The position numbers and the translations under genes were made by a program. A DNA stretch of 64,000 nucleotides from TPA_inf: Saccharomyces (Eukaryota). Positions 1 through 64,000 of the stretch are shown here, in pieces. Under the pieces are notes generated by a model. It did no database searches. It had not been told where the DNA came from and saw only the letters and a list, made by a program, of their open reading frames with translations. Within the stretch, counting starts at the first letter, position 1; each line of letters begins with the position of its first letter. The stretch spans positions 480,001-544,000 of the forward strand of contig BK006943.2 of the NCBI GenBank assembly GCA_000146045.2, in the 5' to 3' direction.

Positions 1-3000
1 GTACTTGCACCTATCGTAAAATATGGAGACTTTTACTGGGTATCTAAAAAGTACTTGCTTCCATCAAATATCTCCGTACCCACCATCAATAATGTCCATA
101 CAAGTGAAAGTACACGCAAATATCCTTATCCTTTCATTCATCGAATGCTTGCGCATGCCAATGCACAGACAATTCGATACTCACTTAAAAATAACACCAT
201 CACGTATTTTAACGAATCAGATGTCGACTGGTCTAGTGCTATTGACTATCAATGTCCTGATTGTTTAATCGGCAAAAGCACCAAACACAGACATATCAAA
301 GGTTCACGACTAAAATACCAAAATTCATACGAACCCTTTCAATACCTACATACTGACATATTTGGTCCAGTTCACAACCTACCAAAAAGTGCACCATCCT
401 ATTTCATCTCATTTACTGATGAGACAACAAAATTCCGTTGGGTTTATCCATTACACGACCGTCGCGAGGACTCTATCCTCGATGTTTTTACTACGATACT
501 AGCTTTTATTAAGAACCAGTTTCAGGCCAGTGTCTTGGTTATACAAATGGACCGTGGTTCTGAGTATACTAACAGAACTCTCCATAAATTCCTTGAAAAA
601 AATGGTATAACTCCATGCTATACAACCACAGCGGATTCCCGAGCACATGGAGTCGCTGAACGGCTCAACCGTACCTTATTAGATGACTGCCGTACTCAAC
701 TGCAATGTAGTGGTTTACCGAACCATTTATGGTTCTCTGCAATCGAATTTTCTACTATTGTGAGAAATTCACTAGCTTCACCTAAAAGCAAAAAATCTGC
801 AAGACAACATGCTGGCTTGGCAGGACTTGATATCAGTACTTTGTTACCTTTCGGTCAACCTGTTATCGTCAATGATCACAACCCTAACTCCAAAATACAT
901 CCTCGTGGCATCCCAGGCTACGCTCTACATCCGTCTCGAAACTCTTATGGATATATCATCTATCTTCCATCCTTAAAGAAGACAGTAGATACAACTAACT
1001 ATGTTATTCTTCAGGGCAAGGAATCCAGATTAGATCAATTCAATTACGACGCACTCACTTTCGATGAAGACTTAAACCGTTTAACTGCTTCATATCAATC
1101 GTTCATTGCGTCAAATGAGATCCAACAATCCGATGATCTTAACATAGAATCTGACCATGACTTCCAATCTGACATCGAACTACATCCTGAGCAACCGAGA
1201 AATGTCCTTTCAAAAGCTGTGAGTCCAACCGATTCCACACCTCCGTCAACTCATACTGAAGATTCGAAACGTGTTTCTAAAACCAATATTCGCGCACCCA
1301 GAGAAGTTGACCCCAACATATCTGAATCTAATATTCTTCCATCAAAGAAGAGATCTAGCACCCCCCAAATTTCCAATATCGAGAGTACCGGTTCGGGTGG
1401 TATGCATAAATTAAATGTTCCTTTACTTGCTCCCATGTCCCAATCTAACACACATGAGTCGTCGCACGCCAGTAAATCTAAAGATTTCAGACACTCAGAC
1501 TCGTACAGTGAAAATGAGACTAATCATACAAACGTACCAATATCCAGTACGGGTGGTACCAACAACAAAACTGTTCCGCAGATAAGTGACCAAGAGACTG
1601 AGAAAAGGATTATACACCGTTCACCTTCAATCGATGCTTCTCCACCGGAAAATAATTCATCGCACAATATTGTTCCTATCAAAACGCCAACTACTGTTTC
1701 TGAACAGAATACCGAGGAATCTATCATCGCTGATCTCCCACTCCCTGATCTACCTCCAGAATCTCCTACCGAATTCCCTGACCCATTTAAAGAACTCCCA
1801 CCGATCAATTCTCGTCAAACTAATTCCAGTTTGGGTGGTATTGGTGACTCTAATGCCTATACTACTATCAACAGTAAGAAAAGATCATTAGAAGATAATG
1901 AAACTGAAATTAAGGTATCACGAGACACATGGAATACTAAGAATATGCGTAGTTTAGAACCTCCGAGATCGAAGAAACGAATTCACCTGATTGCAGCTGT
2001 AAAAGCAGTAAAATCAATCAAACCAATACGGACAACCTTACGATACGATGAGGCAATCACCTATAATAAAGATATTAAAGAAAAAGAAAAATATATCGAG
2101 GCATACCACAAAGAAGTCAATCAACTGTTGAAGATGAAAACTTGGGACACTGACGAATATTATGACAGAAAAGAAATAGACCCTAAAAGAGTAATAAACT
2201 CAATGTTTATCTTCAACAAGAAACGTGACGGTACTCATAAAGCTAGATTTGTTGCAAGAGGTGATATTCAGCATCCTGACACTTACGACTCAGGCATGCA
2301 ATCCAATACCGTACATCACTATGCATTAATGACATCCCTGTCACTTGCATTAGACAATAACTACTATATTACACAATTAGACATATCTTCGGCATATTTG
2401 TATGCAGACATCAAAGAAGAATTATACATAAGACCTCCACCACATTTAGGAATGAATGATAAGTTGATACGTTTGAAGAAATCACTTTATGGATTGAAAC
2501 AAAGTGGAGCGAACTGGTACGAAACTATCAAATCATACCTGATACAACAATGTGGTATGGAAGAAGTTCGTGGATGGTCATGCGTATTTAAAAACAGTCA
2601 AGTGACAATTTGTTTATTCGTAGATGATATGGTATTGTTTAGCAAAAATCTAAATTCAAACAAAAGAATTATAGAGAAGCTTAAGATGCAATACGACACC
2701 AAGATTATAAATCTAGGCGAAAGTGATGAGGAAATTCAATATGACATTCTTGGCTTGGAAATCAAATACCAAAGAGGTAAATACATGAAATTGGGTATGG
2801 AAAACTCATTAACTGAAAAAATACCCAAACTAAACGTACCTTTAAACCCAAAAGGAAGGAAACTTAGTGCTCCAGGTCAACCAGGTCTATATATAGACCA
2901 GCAAGAACTAGAGCTAGAAGAAGATGATTACAAAATGAAGGTACATGAAATGCAAAAGCTGATAGGTCTAGCATCATATGTTGGATATAAATTTAGATTT

Positions 3001-3612
3001 GACCTATTATACTACATCAACACACTTGCACAACATATACTATTTCCGTCCAAGCAAGTGTTAGATATGACATATGAATTGATACAGTTCATATGGAATA
3101 CGAGAGATAAGCAATTAATATGGCACAAAAGCAAACCTGTTAAGCCAACAAATAAATTAGTTGTTATAAGCGATGCCTCGTATGGCAACCAACCGTATTA
3201 TAAATCACAAATTGGCAACATATATTTACTTAATGGAAAGGTAATTGGAGGAAAGTCCACCAAGGCTTCATTAACATGTACTTCAACTACGGAAGCAGAA
3301 ATACACGCGATAAGTGAATCTGTCCCATTATTAAATAATCTAAGTTACCTGATACAAGAACTTGACAAGAAACCAATTACCAAAGGATTACTAACCGACA
3401 GTAAATCTACAATCAGTATAATTATATCCAATAATGAAGAGAAATTTAGGAACAGATTTTTTGGTACTAAAGCAATGAGATTGAGAGATGAAGTATCAGG
3501 AAATCATCTGCACGTATGCTATATCGAAACCAAAAAGAATATTGCAGACGTAATGACCAAACCTCTTCCGATAAAAACATTCAAACTATTAACAAACAAA
3601 TGGATTCATTAG
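1..3612 (+). CDS. TYB: Ty1 TYB (Gag-Pol) C-terminal part, covering integrase, reverse transcriptase and RNase H. 5'-partial with no internal stop.
   Basis: Continuous 1185-codon ORF with Ty1 Pol motifs: integrase DD35E region (HTDIFGP.. TDET..), the RT core motif LFVDDMVLF (a YXDD-type box) and RNase H ([15 protein letters not shown]-like). TAG stop at 3610-3612. Confidence 0.93.
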
Positions 3613-3626
3613 ATCTATTACATTAT

Positions 3627-3634
3627 GGGTGGTA
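3627..3634 (+). other. Ty1 polypurine tract (plus-strand primer site) immediately 5' of the 3' LTR.
   Basis: GGGTGGTA abuts the LTR start TGTTGG at 3635, the canonical Ty1 PPT1 arrangement. Confidence 0.7.
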
Positions 3635-3972
3635 TGTTGGAATAAAAATCCACTATCGTCTATCAACTAATAGTTATATTATCAATATATTATCATATAC
3701 GGTGTTAAGATGATGACATAAGTTATGAGAAGCTGTCATCGAAGTTAGAGGAAGCTGAAACGCAAGGATTGATAATGTAATAGGATCAATGAATATAAAC
3801 ATATAAAACGGAATGAGGAATAATCGTAATATTAGTATGTAGAAATATAGATTCCATTTTGAGGATTCCTATATCCTCGAGGAGAACTTCTAGTATATTC
3901 TGTATACCTAATATTATAGCCTTTATCAACAATGGAATCCCAACAATTATCTCAACATTCACATATTTCTCA
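3635..3972 (+). repeat. Ty1 3' LTR (delta), 338 bp.
   Basis: TGTTGGAATAAAAATCCACTATCG ... GGAATCCCAACAATTATCTCAACATTCACATATTTCTCA, with TG..CA termini and the conserved AAGCTGAAACGCAAGGATTGATAATGTAATAGGATCAATGAAT core. Confidence 0.93.
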
Positions 3973-6196
3973 GTTGCCTTACTTTAACAGAAGATAACAG
4001 AAGTGAAGAACTTATATATTCTGATGAGTCTTTCATATTAGCCAATTCTGAATTTTCAGTAGATGATCTAGTAACATTACGACTGAAGCATGAAGACGAA
4101 GATACCGTTGATAAAGTTCCTGTGGTGGTTGAGGGTGAAAGGGATGATGTCTGGCTACTTTGTAACTGATATTGTAACACATTCACCAACTTAGCAGCTT
4201 GCGCACAGCGTATAGACAGCGTGAGATCGTGGAGTGTTCCAAATACACTAGCTTTGAAATCAGAGGAAGGAATCCGAAGTTGAACATCTTGTGCCGTTGA
4301 TCTATTGTACTTCCAGGTGGGTTCCAATTTCACAACCAATTTACACTTCTCCTTTTCGAAGTCTTTATATACAATTAGTAAGGTCTCGTTGTCTCCGGAT
4401 AAAATTAAAGACAAACACAGCATGTCCTTACTCAAAGGCACCCATGACTTGCCGTTCCAAAGGGAAACTTTTACCGAATCGTTTTCGAAATATACTGCTC
4501 CTCCAGATGTGTTTATGCTTAACGGAAACGATACATACGTTTCATCAACGTTATCGTCATGGGGGGTTGCTGATACCGGGGTAACTGATTGTTGATTGCC
4601 TGGCAAACTAAACAATGATCTTGAATGATTTTTGGGAATATCGATAGTTAGATTCTTTTTGTTTTTTGAGAAGATGCTTAGTAAAGATGAAGATTTACGC
4701 CGATAAAGCGTTGGCTTATAGAAATCGATATCTGGATCGAATAAATCTTTATCTCGTTTATCCTTTCCATCTTCAGAAATTATACTCTCAGAATCGTCAA
4801 TTTCAGACGCAACACTCTCTATTAGTTCGGGAGAGACACTCTCCAGGCTGAAAGTTTGAGAAGCTGTTCTAATGTTTTTTAAGGTAGGTGTGTCCATATA
4901 TTTAGGCGAGAGAGGTACTTGAATGCTCTTATCCAATTCAATTAGCTTTTCACAACTTAGGGATTCAATATCTTTCAGAGAGGTGTCAAGATCTGAATCT
5001 TCGCTAACTGTTGCCCTCTCACTCATGATTGACAGTGACTCCTCGTCAGGGTATTCATTAGAGGTCTCTATTAAGGAAGACAGACTTCCCGGCAAAGGAA
5101 TTGATCTATGCAGTGTGCGACCATTGTGTATTGTATCTGATATCTTTACAGAGCTAATAGGCATATCGTCATTTCTTTTAGGAGAAGTATAATCAGGGTT
5201 GTTACTCCTAACATAAACCTGTTGAGAAATTTTACTTCCAGATCGCTTGTATTCTTTTGTAGCTGTTGAGTCGAAAAGCTTTCTAATAACATGTTTCCAA
5301 TACTCTTGCCATTGAATAGGATCTTTGCAAGTTAACCTCAATACAATGCTATTATTTATCGGTACCTTTAGTTTTGCTCCACTATCATCAAGTCTGATGA
5401 GATCAAGATCGCCGGACCTAAATGGTCGAAATAGCAGCGACCTCCCGACATTCATTAAGTCATGGTTTCCTAACGCAAGGGATTGGAACAAGTTATCAAT
5501 GGTTTGTAATGTGTATGGCATTTTTTCAGAAAGAACCTCAAATATAGCTATCTCCCCATTATCTAATTCAAGGATTTCAACTAGTTTATTATTGATCGCC
5601 AACTTCTTTACATCTAGTCTGTAATATGCTCTATTTATAACCTTATTGGAATCGATTGGCGGAAGATTAATCAGGGAAACTTCGCCTGATATAACGTCAC
5701 GAACGCTTCCGTATTTCAGTGAGTTACAGCTTATAAAGTCATAGCAACTTTTAAATTTGTATACAAACGCACTGATTAGGGAGCCTAGTCGTACTTCATT
5801 TGTGACATAGAAAATGTCCCTCAACTTATAATAAACCTTGAATAGTAATACCGCAAAAAGCTTTTGTGAATCCATCCTAAAGTATGACATGTTCGCATCG
5901 AGAAGCAAATGCATACATCCAAATAAAAGATTATGATACAAATCGAGTATTTGCGCATCTTTGAATAAACTCTTGTAAGAATTCACTATGGATTGTGTTA
6001 GAGACATGTCATCATGATTTGCAGCATGCTTTCTCAAAATGCATCTCAAGTAACCGCTAATTTTTCTCATTTCATGACCAACTTTAACCATTGGGTCCAA
6101 GCTCGAACCATGGTACCTGCTATGGGACTCACAGACAACGAGTAATCGTTTTAACAGAGTCTCGAAGCTCGCTTCTTCCTTGTTAAATAATTCCAT
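3959..6196 (-). CDS. YJR030C: YJR030C, uncharacterized protein of 745 aa. Its last 4 codons and the TGA stop lie inside the Ty1 LTR.
   Basis: ORF-track entry 3959..6208 (749 aa) begins with a GTG. The first in-frame ATG is at 6194-6196 ([15 protein letters not shown]...), giving 745 aa, and synteny with GEA1 and CPR7 fits. Stop is TGA at 3959-3961; the LTR ends at 3972. Confidence 0.88.
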
Positions 6197-6403: not shown

Positions 6404-6435
6404 TTTATCTAACGCGTCGCGACGCGTTAGATAAA
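6404..6435. promoter_or_regulatory. 32-bp perfect palindrome carrying two MluI cell-cycle boxes (ACGCGT x2, MBF-type), about 210 bp upstream of the YJR030C ATG.
   Basis: TTTATCTAACGCGTCGCGACGCGTTAGATAAA is exactly self-complementary. ACGCGT sits at 6412-6417 and 6422-6427 with TCGCGA at the centre. Confidence 0.55.
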
Positions 6436-45566: not shown

Positions 45567-45694
45567 ACAACAATGAGTTTACCAAAGAGAACAATGGAAT
45601 AGGAAACTTTGAACGAAGAAAGGAAAGCAGGAAAGGAAAAAATTTTTAGGCTCGAGAACAATAGGGCGAAAAAACAGGCAACGAACGAACAATG
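45567..45694. promoter_or_regulatory. Rox1 hypoxic operator sites (YYYATTGTTCTC-type) in the ANB1 promoter.
   Basis: On the complement: CCATTGTTCTC (45587-45597), CTCATTGTTGTCG (45565-45577) and CCATTGTTCGTTCG (45681-45694). All contain the ATTGTT core. Confidence 0.65.
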
Positions 45695-45699
45695 GAAAA

Positions 45700-45850
45700 A
45701 CGAAAAAAAAAAAAAAAAACACAGAAAAGAATGCAGAAAGATGTCAACTGAAAAAAAAAAAGGTGAACACAGGAAAAAAAATAAAAAAAAAAAAAAAAAA
45801 AGGAGGACGAAACAAAAAAGTGAAAAAAAATGAAAATTTTTTTGGAAAAC
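45700..45850. repeat. Long poly(dA:dT) tracts (A17 or longer, A11, A19) in the ANB1/CYC1 intergenic region.
   Basis: Runs of 11-19 A with interspersed G. They produce the low-complexity artefact ORFs 45434..45853(-) and 45609..45833(+). Confidence 0.9.
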
Positions 45851-57736: not shown

Positions 57737-58052
57737 TTGTAAGAGATAGGTTAATTTTTTATAGTTGCTGAGATTCCATTGTTGGTAAAGACTTAATATT
57801 AGGTATACAGAATATACTAGGAGTTCTCTCTGGGTATGTAGGAATCCACAAAAGGGTGTCACTAGTTCAACATAATAACATCTTTTTTTTATTCCTTCTT
57901 TGATATTTTGTCATATTATCCTATTATTTTATCAATCCTTGCATTTCAGCTTCCAATAGATTTGATATTTGTTTCTCAATATTATGTCATCTTCATACAC
58001 AGTATGTGATAATATACTAGTAACATGAATACTACTAAATGAGTACTACCTT
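57737..58052 (-). repeat. Solo delta LTR of a diverged subfamily, truncated at its 5' end (element orientation).
   Basis: Reverse-complement alignment to the delta at 63447-63780 (GGGTATGTAGGAATCCACAAAAGGGTGTCACTAGTTCAACATAATAA; CAATCCTTGCATTTCAGCTTCC). Confidence 0.8.
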
Positions 58053-58102
58053 AGGGGTTCATTACAGCAGCTTAAGCGAAAGTAGAAAATGAGGCGGATA
58101 TT

Positions 58103-58434
58103 TGTTGGAATAAAAATCAACTATCATCTACTAACTAGTATTTACGTTACTAGTATATTATCATATACGGTGTTAGAAGATGACGCAAATGATGAGAAAT
58201 AGTCATCTAAATTAGTGGAAGCTGAAACGCAAGGATTGATAATGTAATAGGATCAATGAATATTAACATATAAAATGATGATAATAATATTTATAGAATT
58301 GTGTAGAATTGCAGATTCCCTTTTATGGATTCCTAAATCCTCGAGGAGAACTTCTAGTATATCTACATACCTAATATTATTGCCTTATTAAAAATGGAAT
58401 CCCAACAATTACATCAAAATCCACATTCTCTACA
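58103..58434 (+). repeat. Intact canonical solo delta LTR (332 bp) with a perfect 5-bp target-site duplication ATATT, 120 bp upstream of tR(CCU).
   Basis: TGTTGGAATAAAAATCAACTATCATCTACTAACTAGTATTTACG...ATCCACATTCTCTACA, flanked by ATATT at 58098-58102 and 58435-58439. Confidence 0.92.
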
Positions 58435-58554
58435 ATATTGATTTCCATCGTGTAAGTTTTCTGCACGAAGTTTATTCATTCAATTTGAAGTGCTTCGTAA
58501 TAATATTACTATGCAACTTAGGTACCTCATATTTCTTAGAGTTCAACCAAGTTG

Positions 58555-58626
58555 GTTCCGTTGGCGTAATGGTAACGCGTCTCCCTCCTAAGGAGAAGAC
58601 TGCGGGTTCGAGTCCCGTACGGAACG
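58555..58626 (+). tRNA. HSX1: tRNA-Arg (anticodon CCU), 72 nt. HSX1 is the single-copy AGG decoder.
   Basis: GTTCCGTTGGCGTAATGGTAACGCGTCTCCCTCCTAAGGAGAAGACTGCGGGTTCGAGTCCCGTACGGAACG, followed by T16. Confidence 0.93.
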
Positions 58627-58771
58627 TTGATTATTTTTTTTTTTTCGTTTCTTTATAGAAAAAATTCAGACGATATTACCTTGCGATGAGATAATCTTAC
58701 CGCAGAAAGAGTGCCACAGTGGTAATAACTAGTTGAAGGTTCATATTATATAAAAAACTCTAAGAATAAAA

Positions 58772-59266
58772 ATGGTATCTAGTGCAGTTAAATGTGGCAT
58801 ATGTCGCGGAGTTGATGGTAAATATAAATGTCCTAAATGTGGCGTACGATATTGCTCCTTGAAATGCTATAAAGATGCTGCAAAGCATGTTCATAAGGAA
58901 AGCGAACAACCCAGGGCTGGTACAGAAGCTAATGTGGAAGTTGTTAATAACGATAAGATCATAAACAGTTCACTCGCAATGAATAAAACATTAAAGACGA
59001 AGGCATTCGATGATATATATCAAAATAGCGCAGAATTGCAAGAGCTGTTGAAATACAACACGGTGAAGTTCCATTTGGCAAAGGTTTATAGAATTTTGTC
59101 CAGTACTGTTAACGATGGAAGTTCTGGAAAAATGAACAGCGATCTACAAAAAGAACTAGCTGTAAATTATTTGAATACATTACGATATGGTGGTATACAT
59201 TATAATGAAGCAATTGAGGAATTTTGCCAGATTTTATTAGATAAATTAAATGCGGTGAAGAAATAA
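58772..59266 (+). CDS. HIT1: HIT1, zf-HIT zinc-finger protein involved in box C/D snoRNP assembly (164 aa).
   Basis: zf-HIT motif CGICRGVDGKYKCPKCGVRYCSLKCYKDAAKH. ATG at 58772. Confidence 0.93.
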   Translation: MVSSAVKCGICRGVDGKYKCPKCGVRYCSLKCYKDAAKHVHKESEQPRAGTEANVEVVNNDKIINSSLAMNKTLKTKAFDDIYQNSAELQELLKYNTVKFHLAKVYRILSSTVNDGSSGKMNSDLQKELAVNYLNTLRYGGIHYNEAIEEFCQILLDKLNAVKK

Positions 59267-60765
59267 GAATTATCGTTGTTAGCATGATTTTTAAGATTGA
59301 GCATTTTATTCATTTTTAACCATATAATAGTGAAGGTGAGGACTAATAACAAAGTACTTGTTGAAAGGGTCGGGTTGCTTTTAGGTTTTTTCTTCTCGTT
59401 AAGGATTTCCCACTTGTCTGGCAAGGCGTCAAGCAGACTTGGAAAATAATGATATTATGTCAGAATTTTTGTGTGAGGCGCTTCTATTGCAAGTTTGTGA
59501 CACCTTATAATAAAAGTGAACCATGTATTTACATATGATTAGGGAAAGTTCCACCATCATCTTATGATCTTCATGGCCGTTTTGGTCTTCTTTTTAACTT
59601 GAAGTCCAACTTGGCGACTGTACATATATACATATATATAGCAATAAGTATAACAAGGCAACAAATCAGGTCCCATTATTTAATTTGAAGTCATCTACTG
59701 CCCCATAAGAACCTCTATATTATCAGTAGATTCTTTCTTTTAGGGAAATCGAACCTCGATATTGTAAGAGAAACCCGCGCCACTCCTAAAAAGGTATTTT
59801 GAAGGAGAGGATGATTTGGAGCAACATTTGGTACACTTTATCCTCAGTTTTTCGCTAACTACCTCGCAACTTGTTGTTGTGGATGAAATTTTTGATATTA
59901 ATTTCAATAAATAAAATATATGCAAATATCATTATAATTTGTCAAGTGCGGGAAATAGACTATGCAGTGATTTAGTGTGCAAGTTTGCCCACTTCACATT
60001 CATACCAAATATTTCTTCCCACTCATTTTTATCGTATTAGCACTACATACGTGACTTTTTAGCTCAGCTTTCGGACTGGATAGCTTTACTGACTTACTTT
60101 CTACAAGCGATATCATTCGTCACAGTACTCCAAAGAAGTCTGGGCATTTAATTTTCTTCTTTATCAAGTCCGCCATTATGAAGGAATGTATTGGGTAATA
60201 GTTGACATACCGATGTTCTGCTGGTAGCATCGATGAACGAAAATAGGTAACGGCTTGCCGCTGAAGATATTGGAAATGAGACAGATCATTCTAGGGTAAA
60301 ATGCGCTGTAGAGCTAGCGTCAATTGCGATTTTCGAACACTGGCTGCAGGTATTTCTGTTTTCTCGGCTTTCATTATAGTAATGTGAAGCTACTAGGAGA
60401 ATCACGAAACATCTTTTTAGTAGGATGAGAACACCACGCTCTCCTAACTGGAAGTAATTTTTGGTATGCTTAGAGATCTGTTCCTCTCTTATGACTTCTT
60501 TTTCGCCTACTATAAACTTAATATCAACATATTTAGTTAGTTTTTTCAGAGCAATACGTGTTTATTTTTTCACAACTTCGCATGGCATTATGTATCATTG
60601 CAGCGTAAATTTTTACATTTAGTAATATCTAATAACATATACACAAAAAAGGGACAGATTTTTGAATTAAATAAACCAAGCGTAAATCAGTATTGCTCTT
60701 ACCGCAGTAGGGGGAGTTATCTACTCCTGCTTAACGTAGAGAAACAATAGTAAAAGTTATGCTTG

Positions 60766-61094
60766 TGTTGGAATAAAAATCAACTATCGGCTGGCAACTA
60801 ATAGGGACACTACCAATATATTATCATATACGGTGTTAGACGATGACATAAGATACGAGGAACTGTCATCGAAGTTAGAGGAAGCTGAAATGCAAGGATT
60901 GATAATGTAATAGGATAATGAAACATATAAAACGGAATGAGGAATAATCGTAATATTAGTATATAGAGATAAAGATTCCATTTTGAGGATTCCTATATCC
61001 TCGAGGAGAACTTCTAGTATATTCTGTATACCTGATATTATAGCCTTTACCAACAATAGAATCCCACCAATTATCTCAAAATTCACCAGTATCT
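60766..61094 (+). repeat. Solo delta LTR of the same subfamily as the Ty1 3' LTR at 3635-3972.
   Basis: TGTTGGAATAAAAATCAACTATCGGCTGGCAACTAATAGG...GGAATCCCACCAATTATCTCAAAATTCACC. Its 3' end is fused directly to the next delta. Confidence 0.88.
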
Positions 61095-61427
61095 TAAAGA
61101 GAATGTGGATTTTGATGTAATTGTTGGGATTCCATTGTGATTAAGGCTATAATATTAGGTATGTAGAAAGTACTAGAAGTTCTCCTCCAGGATTTAGGAA
61201 TCCATAAAAGGGAATCTGCAATTCTACACAATTCTATAAATATTATTATCATCATTTTATATGTTAATATTCATTGATCCTATTACATTATCAATCCTTG
61301 CGTTTCAGCTTCCACTAATTTAGATGACTATTTCTCATCATTTGCGTCATCTTCTAACACCGTATATGATAATATACTAGTAACGTAAATACTAGTTAGT
61401 AGATGATAGTTGATTTTTATTCCAACA
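61095..61427 (-). repeat. Solo delta LTR, inverted and tail-to-tail with the preceding delta. It is nearly identical to the delta at 58103-58434 and lies 80 bp upstream of tD(GUC).
   Basis: The reverse complement reads TGTTGGAATAAAAATCAACTATCATCTACTAACTAGTATTTACGTTACTAGTATATTATCATATACGGTGTTAGAAGATGACGCAAATGATGAG... Confidence 0.9.
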
Positions 61428-61507
61428 TATCTCAACATTAATTACTCGGAACTTTTTTTTGATTTGTTATATAATAACAGAAAATCCAGATTTGTACAGA
61501 AAGAAAA

Positions 61508-61579
61508 TCCGTGATAGTTTAATGGTCAGAATGGGCGCTTGTCGCGTGCCAGATCGGGGTTCAATTCCCCGTCGCGGAG
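61508..61579 (+). tRNA. tD(GUC): tRNA-Asp (anticodon GUC), 72 nt.
   Basis: TCCGTGATAGTTTAATGGTCAGAATGGGCGCTTGTCGCGTGCCAGATCGGGGTTCAATTCCCCGTCGCGGAG, followed by T7. Confidence 0.96.
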
Positions 61580-61791
61580 ATTTTTTTGGCTACTGTTGCG
61601 GTTACATATAACATACTTTTTGCATATATCGTAAGTTATCAGACACCATCTGGCTCACTGAAAGTTTATTTCTATGTGCTTTCTGAAACGTATGTATATA
61701 TGAGATTCAAAAACAATATTTAAATATTTTCGATATTATACCTACAATGCAATGGGCTCCTTCTAACTTGAGAACCTCTTCCCGGGTGTTC

Positions 61792-62502
61792 TTACAGGTC
61801 CATATCCTGGCGGAAACTCCTTATGTCTACTTCTGAATCAGAATCCAATTTCGGTTTTTTTTCATAATGTGTATTTTCACGATCACGCTCACGCTCATGT
61901 CCAAGTCCCGTTATGTCATTTAGGTTTCTCGTGTCCCCTCTTCCGTGATTGATTGTTCGTGCTTTCCAGGATTTTATACGACTAGCATTCCTAGGAGGAT
62001 GTTCGACACTTAAAGGCGGCATAGAAAGTCTAAATTTAGGTGCTATATTTTCATTAATATTTGAGAGGTCCCCATTTGATTCGTTGAAACTGAAATTATA
62101 CTTGACTGCGCTGTCTTTTTCAAAAGGTTCCTTATGAGCTTCATTTTCGCGGTGTTGGTTTTCACTGAACTTATTAAGCTTTCTTTCCCTTTCTTTCACC
62201 GGATTTAAAGATTTATCCTGCGAGTTTGAAAGGATATCATTTCTTCGTTTATAGCACCAAGCCCTTAACTCGTCAGCAGTCACATTTGAGTCCAATGCAC
62301 ATAGTATATCATCCAAACAGGTGAGGTAGCCCTGATGTTTGGTTAAAGAGTTTTTCTCATTAGCCACCCGGTAAAGTCTTGTCACCGCATTGGCGGCTAG
62401 CTTGAACTCTTGAGAAAGTTCCAAATTAAGACTCTCAATCGCTTGCTTTGTAGGAGGTTGCTCTGGAGGTAAACTTGATTCCAATGAATGCATTTGCTCC
62501 AT
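61792..62502 (-). CDS. YJR056C: YJR056C, uncharacterized protein (236 aa).
   Basis: 236-aa ORF with ATG at 62500-62502 and coding-like composition. Synteny. Confidence 0.85.
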   Translation of the reverse strand: MEQMHSLESSLPPEQPPTKQAIESLNLELSQEFKLAANAVTRLYRVANEKNSLTKHQGYLTCLDDILCALDSNVTADELRAWCYKRRNDILSNSQDKSLNPVKERERKLNKFSENQHRENEAHKEPFEKDSAVKYNFSFNESNGDLSNINENIAPKFRLSMPPLSVEHPPRNASRIKSWKARTINHGRGDTRNLNDITGLGHERERDRENTHYEKKPKLDSDSEVDIRSFRQDMDL

Positions 62503-62955
62503 AATTGAATATATTCTGCTCTTGAATTAGATATGTGTCGTCGGTAAAAAAGGTTTCTTGAAATGTAATTGTATGAGCTGCCACGATGCTAAACTGCAAA
62601 ACGACGTAAGACAAGTACAGTAGAATGAATGGCTGCGCTTCACCACCAATGATTTGTATCAGGCTAACGTGCACTTGGAAGGTGGAAACGATGCTTTTGT
62701 CCAGATGCCTTTACGAGTAAGGAAAAAGAACCATTTGAAATTTTTTCAAGCGCACTTTTAGAACAAATTCGAAAAGTGAAGAAAATATAGGTGGGGTAAC
62801 AAGGAAAAGAGGCTACAAGAGTTCGTTAATATATTATCTCCGTATTGTGTAAAGGAATATGTCACAATTTGATAATAACTCTTCGTTAAGAGCTTGAAAG
62901 AAATATTTCAACTTGCAAGTCTGGGAAGTGAATGGAGACATAAAAAACAAAAAAA

Positions 62956-63044
62956 TCTCCCGGGGGCGAGTCGAACGCCCGATCTCAAGATTTCGTAGTG
63001 ATAAATTACAGTCTTGCGCCTTAAACCAACTTGGCTACCGAGAG
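62956..63044 (-). tRNA. SUP4: tRNA-Tyr (anticodon GUA) with a 14-nt intron, 89 nt. Position matches SUP4.
   Basis: The reverse complement reads CTCTCGGTAGCCAAGTTGGTTTAAGGCGCAAGACTGTAA[TTTATCACTACGAA]ATCTTGAGATCGGGCGTTCGACTCGCCCCCGGGAGA. A T-run follows on the gene strand. Confidence 0.93.
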
Positions 63045-63446
63045 TATTTAATTGTTGAAGAAAGAGTATACTACATAACACATATACAATTGAAAAAGAG
63101 ATTTCAAATAATTATCCGGTCCTTCCAAGATGGTTCAGAGTGAAATTTATACTAAAGCTAAGGGATGGAAGAGAATACTGACAAATTAATGAACAAATAC
63201 TTGAAATGAGATAGCAACTGAGGAACAAACGTAAGTATTTTCAACGGAATTAGAAATAGCGACATCATGACCAGCTTATTCGCAAATGTGATTTTCGGTT
63301 GGGAAGTATTAAGTCAGCATCATCATATGAAAATACTTCATAACTTTTCTGGAGGATACCTTTTGAAGAGAGAAACCTGTATTTTGCACAGTGGATTAGA
63401 GCCGAAACTTCATATGCTGCTGCGTTATTTTCCATAGCTATAGTAA

Positions 63447-63780
63447 CGTTGGAACAAGAATCAACTATTACCTATCGAAGAGTTTTCATGTTACTATTAT
63501 ATTATCCCATACTGTGTAAGAAGATAACATAAGGATTGAGAAACAGTAACAAAGTCTAATGAAAGCTAAAAATGCAAGGATTGATAATGTAATAGGATAA
63601 TGAGTGACAAAGTATCAAAGAAGGAATAAAAAAAAGACATTATTATGTTGAACTAGTGACACCCTTTTGTGGATTCCTACATACCCAGAGAGAACTCCTA
63701 GTATATTCTGTATACCTAATATTAAGTCTTTACCAACAATGGAATCCCAGCAATTATCAAAAAATTCACCTTTCTTCCAA
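63447..63780 (+). repeat. Solo delta LTR of the diverged subfamily, about 400 bp upstream of SUP4.
   Basis: CGTTGGAACAAGAATCAACTATTACC...AAAATGCAAGGATTGATAATGTAATAGGATAATGAG...CCAACAATGGAATCCCAGCAATTATC. Confidence 0.85.
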
Positions 63781-64000
63781 ACATTAATTTGTTCCACGGG
63801 TCCATTTTTATAATTACGAAATAATTGTGCATTGGTAACAAAGGGAGAAAGCGATATCCTAAACTAGTAGGTTACAGTTGATAATATAAAAAGTTGGAAA
63901 ATAGCTTAGAAATGAAGAAGAGAATAACGGCTTCTATGCGGTTGTGACTTTTGACGCGTTAGGCGTGGTGCTAAAGATGGCGAAAAAATGTAACGTCTTC

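What the first reader, a model, noticed from the sequence alone, without database searches (positions are those of the whole stretch)
3959..3977. Ty1 3' LTR supplies the last four codons and the stop codon of YJR030C
The minus-strand YJR030C ORF runs into the terminal 14 bp of the delta LTR. The LTR ends at 3972 (..CATATTTCTCA). The gene's final codons read ..Q-L-R-N-M-TGA, with L (partly), R, N, M and the stop encoded inside the LTR. The C-terminus in this genome is therefore a product of the Ty1 insertion. Strains lacking this Ty1 copy should carry a different, probably longer, native C-terminus.
Basis: seen in the sequence. Interest (0 to 1): 0.5.

Follow-up and report, generated by a model that had tools for sequence, protein, structure and literature searches.

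The report
Ty1 insertion truncates yeast RBH2 gene
In this laboratory-yeast sequence a Ty1 retrotransposon sits inside the end of the RBH2 (YJR030C) gene, so the annotated protein ends in four transposon-encoded residues and lacks its last 99 conserved residues (a whole folded domain), whereas the Ty-free yeast strains examined and sister species keep them.

Summary
The minus-strand ORF 6196..3959 (745 codons plus stop) runs 14 nt into the 3' LTR of a Ty1 element. That LTR spans 3635..3972. Two bases of Leu742, then Arg, Asn, Met and the TGA stop are all LTR sequence.

- Ty-free S. cerevisiae alleles are identical up to ...GGCAAC and then continue for 99 more codons, giving 840 aa.
- Full-length orthologues from five other Saccharomyces species and more distant yeasts carry the same conserved tail.
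- The predicted GTTGC target-site duplication is present at the far end of the element. This holds in a strain with a single Ty1 and in an assembly identical to the window over the 6.2 kb compared, which carries an 11.5-kb tandem Ty1 array.
- Removing the Ty1 and one duplicate in silico restores the 840-aa ORF.
- The lost piece models confidently as a complete RanBD/EVH1-type PH-like domain, and the breakpoint lies in its first strand.

This is a natural Ty1 truncation allele of the S288C laboratory lineage, the same kind of event as hap1-Ty1. I found no paper describing it. A chromosome X assembly carrying loxPsym sites has the Ty1 removed but leaves the gene truncated. The functional consequence is inferred, not shown.

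The parts
1..3612 (+). Ty1 internal region: the 3' part of the TYB (pol) reading frame, open from the window start to the stop at 3610-3612
   Evidence: ORF 55..3612, frame open from base 1. Pfam rve (integrase) at residues 111-211, a retroviral SH3-like domain, and RVT_2 at residues 729-936, which is the Ty1/copia order; 99.7-100% identical to the Ty1 at the same site in other assemblies.
3626..3634 (+). Polypurine tract TGGGTGGTA, directly before the 3' LTR
   Evidence: Read from the sequence. That this is the Ty1 plus-strand primer site rests on established knowledge of Ty1.
3635..3972 (+). Ty1 3' LTR (delta), 338 bp, with TG...CA termini
   Evidence: aligns with four other delta copies in the window; 338/338 identical to the LTR at the far end of the element or array in L007, L017 and L019.
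3959..3972 (-). LTR-encoded end of the ORF: two bases of Leu742, then Arg743, Asn744, Met745 and the TGA stop
   Evidence: of the three frames entering the antisense LTR end, one gives an immediate stop, one gives xRNM*, and one gives a 61-residue tail. This gene entered in the xRNM* frame.
3973..3977 (+). Target-site duplication copy GTTGC (GCAAC on the gene strand), gene-proximal copy
   Evidence: a single GCAAC in empty sites. (a second GCAAC copy at the other end of the Ty1 in L007/L018, L017 and L019).
3959..6196 (-). RBH2/YJR030C as annotated in S288C: 745 codons plus stop. This is a Ty1-truncated allele.
   Evidence: exact match to NP_012564.3 Rbh2p, S288C. (98-99% identical to 840-aa alleles through Q741).
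3973..6196 (-). Native part of the gene: codons 1-741 plus the first base of codon 742
   Evidence: identical to two Ty-free alleles up to this point apart from one substitution in L001, with divergence starting exactly at 3972.
3974..4012 (-). Residues 729-741: the remaining stub of strand 1 of the C-terminal PH-like domain. The rest of the domain (742-830) is severed.
   Evidence: strand 729-744 in the full-length model; the domain spans 729-830. Residue numbering is shared between S. paradoxus and S. cerevisiae because their alignment has no gaps.
4157..4498 (-). Residues 567-680: the second predicted PH-like domain, retained in the truncated protein
   Evidence: beta strands 567-663 plus helix 667-680, pLDDT about 74-88.
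5273..5641 (-). Residues 186-308: the first predicted PH-like domain, retained. It is preceded by an N-terminal helical domain (residues 1-158, window 5723-6196).
   Evidence: One search gives DH/PH-type matches (Trio, Dbs), and the paper PMC5091641 describes a helical RhoGEF-like N-terminus.
6405..6434 (.). Perfect 30-nt palindrome with two ACGCGT (MCB-type) cores, 209-238 nt upstream of the RBH2 ATG. It is a probable promoter element of the gene.
   Evidence: one match, none expected by chance. YJR030C falls in a G1/S co-expression core cluster (PMC3627109). The assignment as a promoter element is inference.

Best explanation
A Ty1 retrotransposon integrated into codon 742 of RBH2 (YJR030C) in an ancestor of the S288C laboratory lineage. 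It is transcribed convergently with the gene.

Shown:
- Integration duplicated the 5-bp target GTTGC and cut off the last 99 codons.
- The reading frame now runs 14 nt into the U5 end of the 3' LTR, read antisense. It picks up Leu-Arg-Asn-Met and stops at a TGA supplied by the LTR.
- The annotated 745-aa protein is therefore a chimera of 741 host residues and 4 LTR-derived residues.
- It keeps the N-terminal helical domain and two predicted PH-like domains.
- It lacks the whole conserved C-terminal RanBD/EVH1-type PH-like domain (residues about 729-830), because the breakpoint lies in the first strand of that domain.
- The severed 3' piece survives intact but unlinked on the other side of the Ty1 array, next to BNA1. 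That location is outside the window.
- In the S288C-type assembly the element later became a tandem Ty1-LTR-Ty1 array. A related strain still has the single element.

Inferred:
- The insertion is young.
- The truncated gene is still transcribed from its own promoter and must use cryptic 3'-end signals in the antisense LTR.
- The protein is most likely a partial-loss-of-function variant.
For: Junction and frame.

LTR boundaries and Ty1 identity.

Identity of the ORF with S288C Rbh2p, and 840-aa S. cerevisiae alleles in the same cluster.

Empty sites with the gene order GEA1-RBH2(840 aa)-BNA1, and DNA identity ending exactly at the LTR terminus. Two further empty sites came from metagenomes.

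The ancestral state is long. Full-length orthologues of 836-885 aa carry a conserved tail. Most full-length family members among 51 representatives align to the profile end. Eleven invariant columns lie in the lost segment.

Target-site duplication and intact 3' remnant. In-silico excision restores an 840-aa ORF.

Same insertion in a window-matching assembly: L006 is identical to the window over 6,196 nt. Its outer junction lies in L017, and the array measures 11,510 bp.

Young insertion: the outer LTRs are 338/338 identical.

Lost segment is a domain. In the full-length model residues 729-830 form seven strands plus a C-terminal helix. The isolated model has pLDDT 86 and pTM 0.78. Foldseek matches the RanBP3 and RanBP2 Ran-binding domains and Dcp1/Ena EVH1 domains, with TM 0.6-0.69.

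Transcription of the lab allele: membership of a G1/S co-expression core and a double ACGCGT palindrome upstream.
Against: Nothing found contradicts the structural account. The weak points concern consequences and context.
- No data here show that the 745-aa protein is made, is stable, or is impaired.
- The structure models rest on shallow alignments of 9-10 sequences.
- Foldseek E-values are about 1e-4, which supports a fold-level resemblance only.
- How common the insertion is across strains was sampled, not measured.
- The window itself does not contain the 5' end of the array. The target-site duplication for this exact genome is shown through an assembly that is identical over the 6.2 kb compared.
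Confidence: 0.93

Rival explanations
1. The truncation is functionally neutral. The C-terminal domain is dispensable, and the 745-aa protein does everything the 840-aa protein does.
For: The first 741 codons differ from other alleles by only a handful of substitutions. The lab-strain gene is still expressed in a regulated way. The allele persists in widely used lab strains.
Against: The lost segment is a confidently folded domain. It is conserved from Saccharomyces to Vanderwaltozyma, with invariant residues. An intact remainder is expected anyway for a young insertion, since the LTRs are identical, so that point says little. Deleting the gene in wine and sake backgrounds causes a strong growth-rate defect (PMC3504119). 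From my own recollection, the S288C deletion has no comparable phenotype.
Confidence: 0.25
2. In S288C the gene is effectively dead. Transcripts running antisense into the Ty1 LTR are unstable or poorly terminated, or the protein is degraded, so the annotated ORF is a pseudogene.
For: The native 3' UTR and terminator are 11.5 kb away. Transcription is convergent with Ty1. The cut inside strand 1 leaves a 13-residue stub after a disordered linker.
Against: YJR030C gives a consistent cell-cycle expression profile in lab-strain microarray sets, so mRNA is present. The LTR supplies an in-frame stop, so this is not a non-stop transcript. The two retained PH-like domains and the helical domain are separate folded units joined by disordered linkers.
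Confidence: 0.2
3. The 745-aa form is ancestral, or the overlap is an assembly or annotation artefact. On this view the longer forms elsewhere are read-through or fusion gene models.
For: None found. The protein database does contain artefactual models near this gene: a cluster that merges Gea1p with Rbh2p and an adapter-derived chimera.
Against: The 840-aa ORF is continuous in genomic DNA of many strains, and orthologues in other yeasts have the same full-length form. The junction carries the hallmarks of integration, namely the LTR terminus and a 5-bp duplication. It is reproduced in three independent chromosome assemblies.
Confidence: 0.01

Closest known systems
hap1-Ty1 allele of S288C-derived strains (Gaisne et al. 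1999, cited in PMC2515631 and PMC3511429)
   Same: A Ty1 element sits in the 3' end of a protein-coding gene in the S288C lineage. It replaces the native C-terminus with Ty-encoded residues and a Ty-encoded stop. It is absent from most other strains and is carried silently in the reference annotation.
   Different: For HAP1 the functional defect is demonstrated and the allele is well known. From my recollection, only a short C-terminal stretch of Hap1 is lost. Here 99 residues, a whole predicted domain, are lost, the effect is untested, and I found no paper describing it. PMC2515631 names HAP1 as the only coding Ty insertion among the indels it catalogued and calls the rest noncoding.
Canonical Ty1 integration (5-bp target-site duplication, preference for the region upstream of RNA polymerase III genes)
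   Same: TG...CA LTR termini, a 5-bp duplication (GTTGC), identical LTRs at insertion, and IN-RT gene order.
   Different: No tRNA gene lies within the 14.5-kb Ty-free locus, and the nearest tRNA in the window is 34 kb away. This is one of the uncommon Ty1 insertions into a polymerase II coding region. By contrast, the delta cluster at 57.7-63.8 kb in the same window sits among tRNA genes.
Ran-binding domain / EVH1 branch of the PH-like fold (RanBP1, RanBP2, RanBP3, Nup50; Dcp1, Ena/VASP, Homer)
   Same: The lost domain has seven strands capped by a C-terminal helix. Its best structural matches are RanBDs and EVH1 domains, with TM 0.6-0.69. The family was named Rbh, for Ran-binding-domain homologue, from profile searches (PMC5091641).
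   Different: Sequence identity is only 10-18%. Nothing here tests Ran binding or peptide binding. The published Rbh assignment was presumably made on reference-strain sequences. If so, it would refer to one of the two retained domains rather than this one (my inference).
Sc2.0 synthetic chromosome X design (retrotransposons deleted, loxPsym sites added; PMC5894084)
   Same: L016 carries loxPsym sites 3 bp after stop codons. It has the Ty1 array at this site removed.
   Different: The deletion left both GCAAC copies with a loxPsym site between them. The ORF therefore still ends early, now as ...VRQHNFV*, and the 99-codon remnant stays unlinked. Removing the Ty did not restore the ancestral gene.

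Membership tests
Ty1/copia LTR retrotransposon, 3' LTR (delta) | LTR of about 330-340 bp with TG...CA termini, similar to other delta elements | tested here: met
   3635 TGTTGG ... TCTCA 3972, 338 bp. It aligns with four other delta copies in the window, up to 95% identity over sub-segments.
Ty1/copia LTR retrotransposon, 3' LTR (delta) | Internal region encoding integrase before reverse transcriptase, with a polypurine tract abutting the 3' LTR | tested here: met
   rve at residues 111-211 and RVT_2 at residues 729-936 of the frame 1..3609. TGGGTGGTA at 3626-3634.
Ty1/copia LTR retrotransposon, 3' LTR (delta) | 5-bp target-site duplication flanking the element, with a single copy in empty sites | tested here: met
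   GCAAC appears once in L001 and L002. GCAAC flanks both ends in L007/L018, in L006+L017 and in L008+L019.
Ty1-insertion C-terminal truncation allele (hap1-Ty1 type) | Ty1 lies inside the coding region, and the native C-terminus is replaced by Ty-encoded residues and stop | tested here: met
   Breakpoint within codon 742. The LRNM* tail comes from the LTR, and 99 native codons are displaced.
Ty1-insertion C-terminal truncation allele (hap1-Ty1 type) | Polymorphic: present in the S288C lineage and absent from most other strains and from sister species | tested here: met
   The 745-aa allele occurs in S288C, CEN.PK113-7D and a few other assemblies. Eight distinct 840-aa alleles and nine empty-site contigs were found. 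Orthologues are full length. Population frequency was not quantified.
Ty1-insertion C-terminal truncation allele (hap1-Ty1 type) | Demonstrated change of gene function | not testable with these tools
   This needs allele replacement and phenotyping. There are only indirect hints: domain loss and strong deletion phenotypes in non-S288C backgrounds.
Rbh / UPF0508 family (Pfam PF26660, PH_41) | Significant sequence homology to family members over the full length | tested here: met
   Orthologues match at E = 0 to 1e-55 with 97-100% coverage. Precomputed PF26660 hits are recorded for both the 745-aa and 840-aa products. The local Pfam copy lacks this model, so a direct scan gave nothing.
Rbh / UPF0508 family (Pfam PF26660, PH_41) | Full domain set, including the conserved C-terminal PH-like domain | tested here: not met
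   The window allele ends at residue 741 plus 4, inside strand 1 of that domain. It is a truncated member of the family.
Ran-binding domain (RanBD) | PH-like fold most similar to solved RanBDs | tested here: met
   The isolated model of residues 722-840 matches RanBP3 2y8f at E 1.5e-4 and TM 0.65, and also RanBP2 RanBD2-4 and Nup50. EVH1 domains score equally well.
Ran-binding domain (RanBD) | Binding of Ran-GTP, and conserved Ran-contact motifs | not tested
   No residue-level comparison or binding data. Sequence identity to RanBDs is 10-18%.

The most novel reading that the evidence does not exclude
RBH2 in every S288C-derived resource would be a domain-deleted hypomorph. Those resources include the BY4741 deletion, GFP and TAP collections, and apparently the synthetic chromosome X. 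This cryptic lab-strain defect, a second case like hap1, would explain why the gene has stayed 'function unknown'. It would also explain why it behaves as a growth and residual-fructose QTL gene with strong deletion phenotypes in wine and sake backgrounds. Restoring the 840-aa allele would then reveal the role of a three-PH-domain, G1/S-expressed protein.
Probability: 0.35. Interest if true: 0.55.

Novelty: new member of a known kind. Interest (0 to 1): 0.4.

Why it matters
The reference yeast genome, and the strain collections built on it, carry a version of RBH2 that lacks a conserved domain. The annotation does not flag this, because the LTR happens to provide a stop codon 14 nt in.

Several practical consequences follow.
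- A null result or localisation reported for YJR030C in S288C derivatives describes the truncated protein.
- Comparisons with wild, wine or sake strains, such as the residual-sugar QTL study in PMC3504119, compare different architectures.
- Domain predictions made on the reference sequence miss one of three PH-like domains.
- Engineering that simply removes the Ty1, as in the loxPsym-bearing chromosome X assembly, does not repair the gene.

More generally, ORFs whose stop codon lies inside a mobile element should be checked against Ty-free relatives.

Tried and rejected
- The first protein search returned no S. cerevisiae sequences. The reason is that the 90% cluster holding Rbh2p is merged with Gea1p and is represented by a Gea1p sequence.
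- A second search using the orthologue alignment found nothing new. In hindsight it was wasted.
- A Pfam scan of the 745-aa and 840-aa proteins gave no hit, because the local Pfam copy lacks PF26660.
- The one supplement file held as text for the PH-domain paper has no Rbh coordinates.
I reached the far junction through a BNA1 homologue search followed by a cluster look-up.
- Literature searches for RBH2+Ty1, YJRWTy1-2 and Rbh2 found no description of the truncation.
- The metagenome scan gave 11 loci. Nine were chance matches in unrelated organisms, and only two were real RBH2.
- Whole-model Foldseek hits could not be assigned to a domain, and the Rtt106 tandem-PH matches had poor superposition (rmsd 17-19 Å). 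I therefore modelled and searched the C-terminal segment on its own.
- I rejected the idea that 745 aa is ancestral, and the idea of an assembly artefact (see rival explanations).

Full report
**What is in the sequence**

- Window 1..3612 (+) is the 3' part of a Ty1 pol frame. Integrase precedes reverse transcriptase.
- A polypurine tract, TGGGTGGTA, lies at 3626-3634.
- A 338-bp delta LTR runs from TGTTGG at 3635 to TCTCA at 3972. The same LTR type recurs as solo copies at 57.7-63.8 kb in the window.
- On the minus strand an ORF starts at the ATG at 6196 and stops at the TGA at 3961-3959, giving 745 codons.
- Its last codons are Q (3976-3974), L (3973-3971), R, N, M, then stop. The final 14 nt of the ORF (3959-3972) are therefore the antisense U5 end of the LTR.
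- The protein is an exact match to Rbh2p/YJR030C of S. cerevisiae S288C.

**What the native gene looks like**

- The first homologue search returned only other species. All of their full-length proteins were about 95 residues longer: S. paradoxus 840 aa, S. mikatae 836, S. uvarum 839, S. eubayanus 839, S. kudriavzevii 881, Maudiozyma 849 and Vanderwaltozyma 885.
- In the alignment they continue after ...LLLSSxKVRQ with a conserved tail, HVKTKSNIWKPSRVGFTDIFSQEYKG...YKLILPF. The window protein instead has LRNM.
- S. cerevisiae sequences were hidden because their 90% cluster is merged with Gea1p. The cluster listing showed many 840-aa S. cerevisiae alleles.
- Those alleles are 98-99% identical to the window protein through Q741, and then carry 99 further residues.

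**The empty site**

- A Ty-free assembly (L001) has the gene order GEA1-RBH2(840 aa)-BNA1-MDE1, with 488 bp between RBH2 and BNA1.
- Its DNA matches the window up to ...AAGGCAAC apart from one substitution, and a second Ty-free contig (L002) is identical. The two alleles then part at exactly the LTR terminus.
- Further empty sites appear in four more contigs, in two Logan contigs carrying the S288C-type BNA1 allele, and in two metagenome contigs.

**The other end of the element**

- L007 encodes the same 745-aa protein but has a single Ty1 of 5,933 bp. That Ty1 is 99.7% identical to the Ty1 in the window, and both of its LTRs are 338/338 identical to the window's LTR.
- Its far junction reads ...TATTCCAACA|GCAAC|ATGTTAAAACG.... 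This is the predicted GTTGC duplication, followed by the intact remaining 99 codons and stop of RBH2, and then BNA1.
- Deleting the Ty1 and one GCAAC copy in silico gives an uninterrupted 840-aa ORF.
- L006 is identical to the window over all 6,196 nt compared. It carries a tandem Ty1-LTR-Ty1 array.
- The overlapping locus L017, from the same record, shows the same outer junction. The array measures 11,510 bp.
- The two outer LTRs of the array are identical to each other, while the middle LTR is only 87% identical.
- This pattern suggests one young insertion that later became a tandem array in the S288C line. That last step is inference.

**What was lost**

- A full-length AlphaFold2 model of the S. 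paradoxus protein uses the same residue numbering as S. cerevisiae. It shows these regions:
  - a helical N-terminal domain, residues 1-158;
  - a PH-like unit, residues 186-308;
  - a long disordered region, residues 314-549;
  - a second PH-like unit, residues 567-680;
  - a disordered serine-rich linker, residues 682-726;
  - a third unit of seven strands plus a C-terminal helix, residues 729-830.
- Residues 722-840 modelled alone give pLDDT 86 and pTM 0.78.
- The best PDB matches for that model are the Ran-binding domains of RanBP3 and RanBP2 and the EVH1 domains of Dcp1, Ena and Homer, with TM about 0.6-0.69 and E about 1e-4.
- The breakpoint after residue 741 lies inside the first strand (729-744). 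The S288C protein therefore lacks this domain entirely.
- The domain is conserved. Eleven invariant columns across ten orthologues fall within it. In an exhaustive profile search, most full-length members of this small family (51 representatives) align to the profile's end.

**Context**

- No tRNA gene lies within the 14.5-kb Ty-free locus, and the nearest tRNA in the window is 34 kb away. This is an atypical Ty1 target.
- The gene is transcribed convergently with the Ty1.
- The gene appears to be expressed in lab strains. It belongs to a tight G1/S co-expression core together with CDC45, POL2, RNR1 and RAD27 (PMC3627109).
- A perfect 30-nt palindrome with two ACGCGT cores lies 209-238 nt upstream of its ATG.
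- In wine and sake backgrounds YJR030C is a validated residual-sugar QTL gene, and deleting it slows growth strongly (PMC3504119).
- Whether the S288C truncation weakens the protein is not shown. I consider partial loss of function the most likely outcome, with neutrality and effective gene death as alternatives.

**Comparison with what is known**

- The event is of the same kind as the Ty1 insertion at the 3' end of HAP1 in S288C (Gaisne 1999, cited).
- I found no paper that describes the RBH2 case.
- One polymorphism catalogue names HAP1 as the Ty insertion at the 3' end of a gene and calls the remaining Ty indels noncoding.
- Another paper describes inserting a marker 'between YJRWTy1-2 and YJR030C'.
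- An assembly carrying loxPsym sites 3 bp after stop codons (L016) is consistent with the Sc2.0 synthetic chromosome X design described in PMC5894084.
- In L016 the Ty1 array is replaced by a loxPsym site between the two GCAAC copies. The ORF there still ends early, as ...VRQHNFV*.

**Verdict**

- This is a real and clear-cut new member of a known kind, namely natural Ty1 truncation alleles of the reference strain.
- It has practical consequences for anyone studying RBH2, and its general surprise value is modest.

Noticed in passing
L016 9163-9220 (GCA_033956085.1, CP135956.1): In this assembly a 34-bp loxPsym site lies between the two GCAAC copies and replaces the Ty1 array. There are nine loxPsym sites in 20.5 kb, and the two checked lie 3 bp after stop codons, so this looks like the Sc2.0 synthetic chromosome X. 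RBH2 now ends ...VRQHNFV* at a TAA inside loxPsym. Removing the Ty1 did not repair the gene, and the annotated LTR-borne stop was deleted along with the LTR.
   Followed up: partly
L006 12225-22238 together with L017 1-9209, compared with L007 12225-18157: The S288C-type assembly has a tandem Ty1-LTR-Ty1 array of 11,510 bp. Its two outer LTRs are 338/338 identical, and its middle LTR is only 87% identical to them. A related assembly with the same truncated allele has a single Ty1 with identical LTRs. The two Ty1 units of the array are 98.8% and 96.6% identical to that single element.
   Followed up: partly
window 6405-6434: A perfect 30-nt palindrome, TTATCTAACGCGTCGCGACGCGTTAGATAA, with two ACGCGT (MCB-type) cores lies between GEA1 and RBH2, 209-238 nt upstream of the RBH2 start. 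This fits the gene's place in a G1/S co-expression cluster (PMC3627109).
   Followed up: partly
window 57742-63800: A cluster of at least six delta (Ty1 LTR) copies and fragments, in both orientations, is interleaved with tRNA-Arg(CCT), tRNA-Asp(GTC) and tRNA-Tyr(GTA) genes. One inverted pair is 276 nt long and 97% complementary. This is the usual Ty1 landing zone, in contrast with the ORF insertion studied here.
   Followed up: no
protein cluster (P0013-P0027): The 90% identity cluster that holds Rbh2p also holds the unrelated neighbour Gea1p (1408 aa) and is represented by a Gea1p sequence. Presumably a fused gene model links them. This hid all S. cerevisiae Rbh2 proteins from the homologue search.
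   Followed up: partly
P0011 (ENA metagenome contig, 414 aa): This is a chimeric protein. A UBX-domain N-terminal part is joined to an Rbh2 fragment through the peptide LDVYKRQ, which is the translation of the Nextera transposase adapter. It is an assembly artefact.
   Followed up: yes
window 45669-45834: A long A-rich, low-complexity tract was reported as overlapping direct repeats (family D7). I did not examine it.
   Followed up: no
L007 18163-18462; L017 9215-9514: The severed 3' end of RBH2 (codons 742-840 plus stop) is still an open, undegraded frame next to BNA1 in Ty-bearing strains. Some gene callers report it as a small partial ORF at contig ends (L023-L025).
   Followed up: partly
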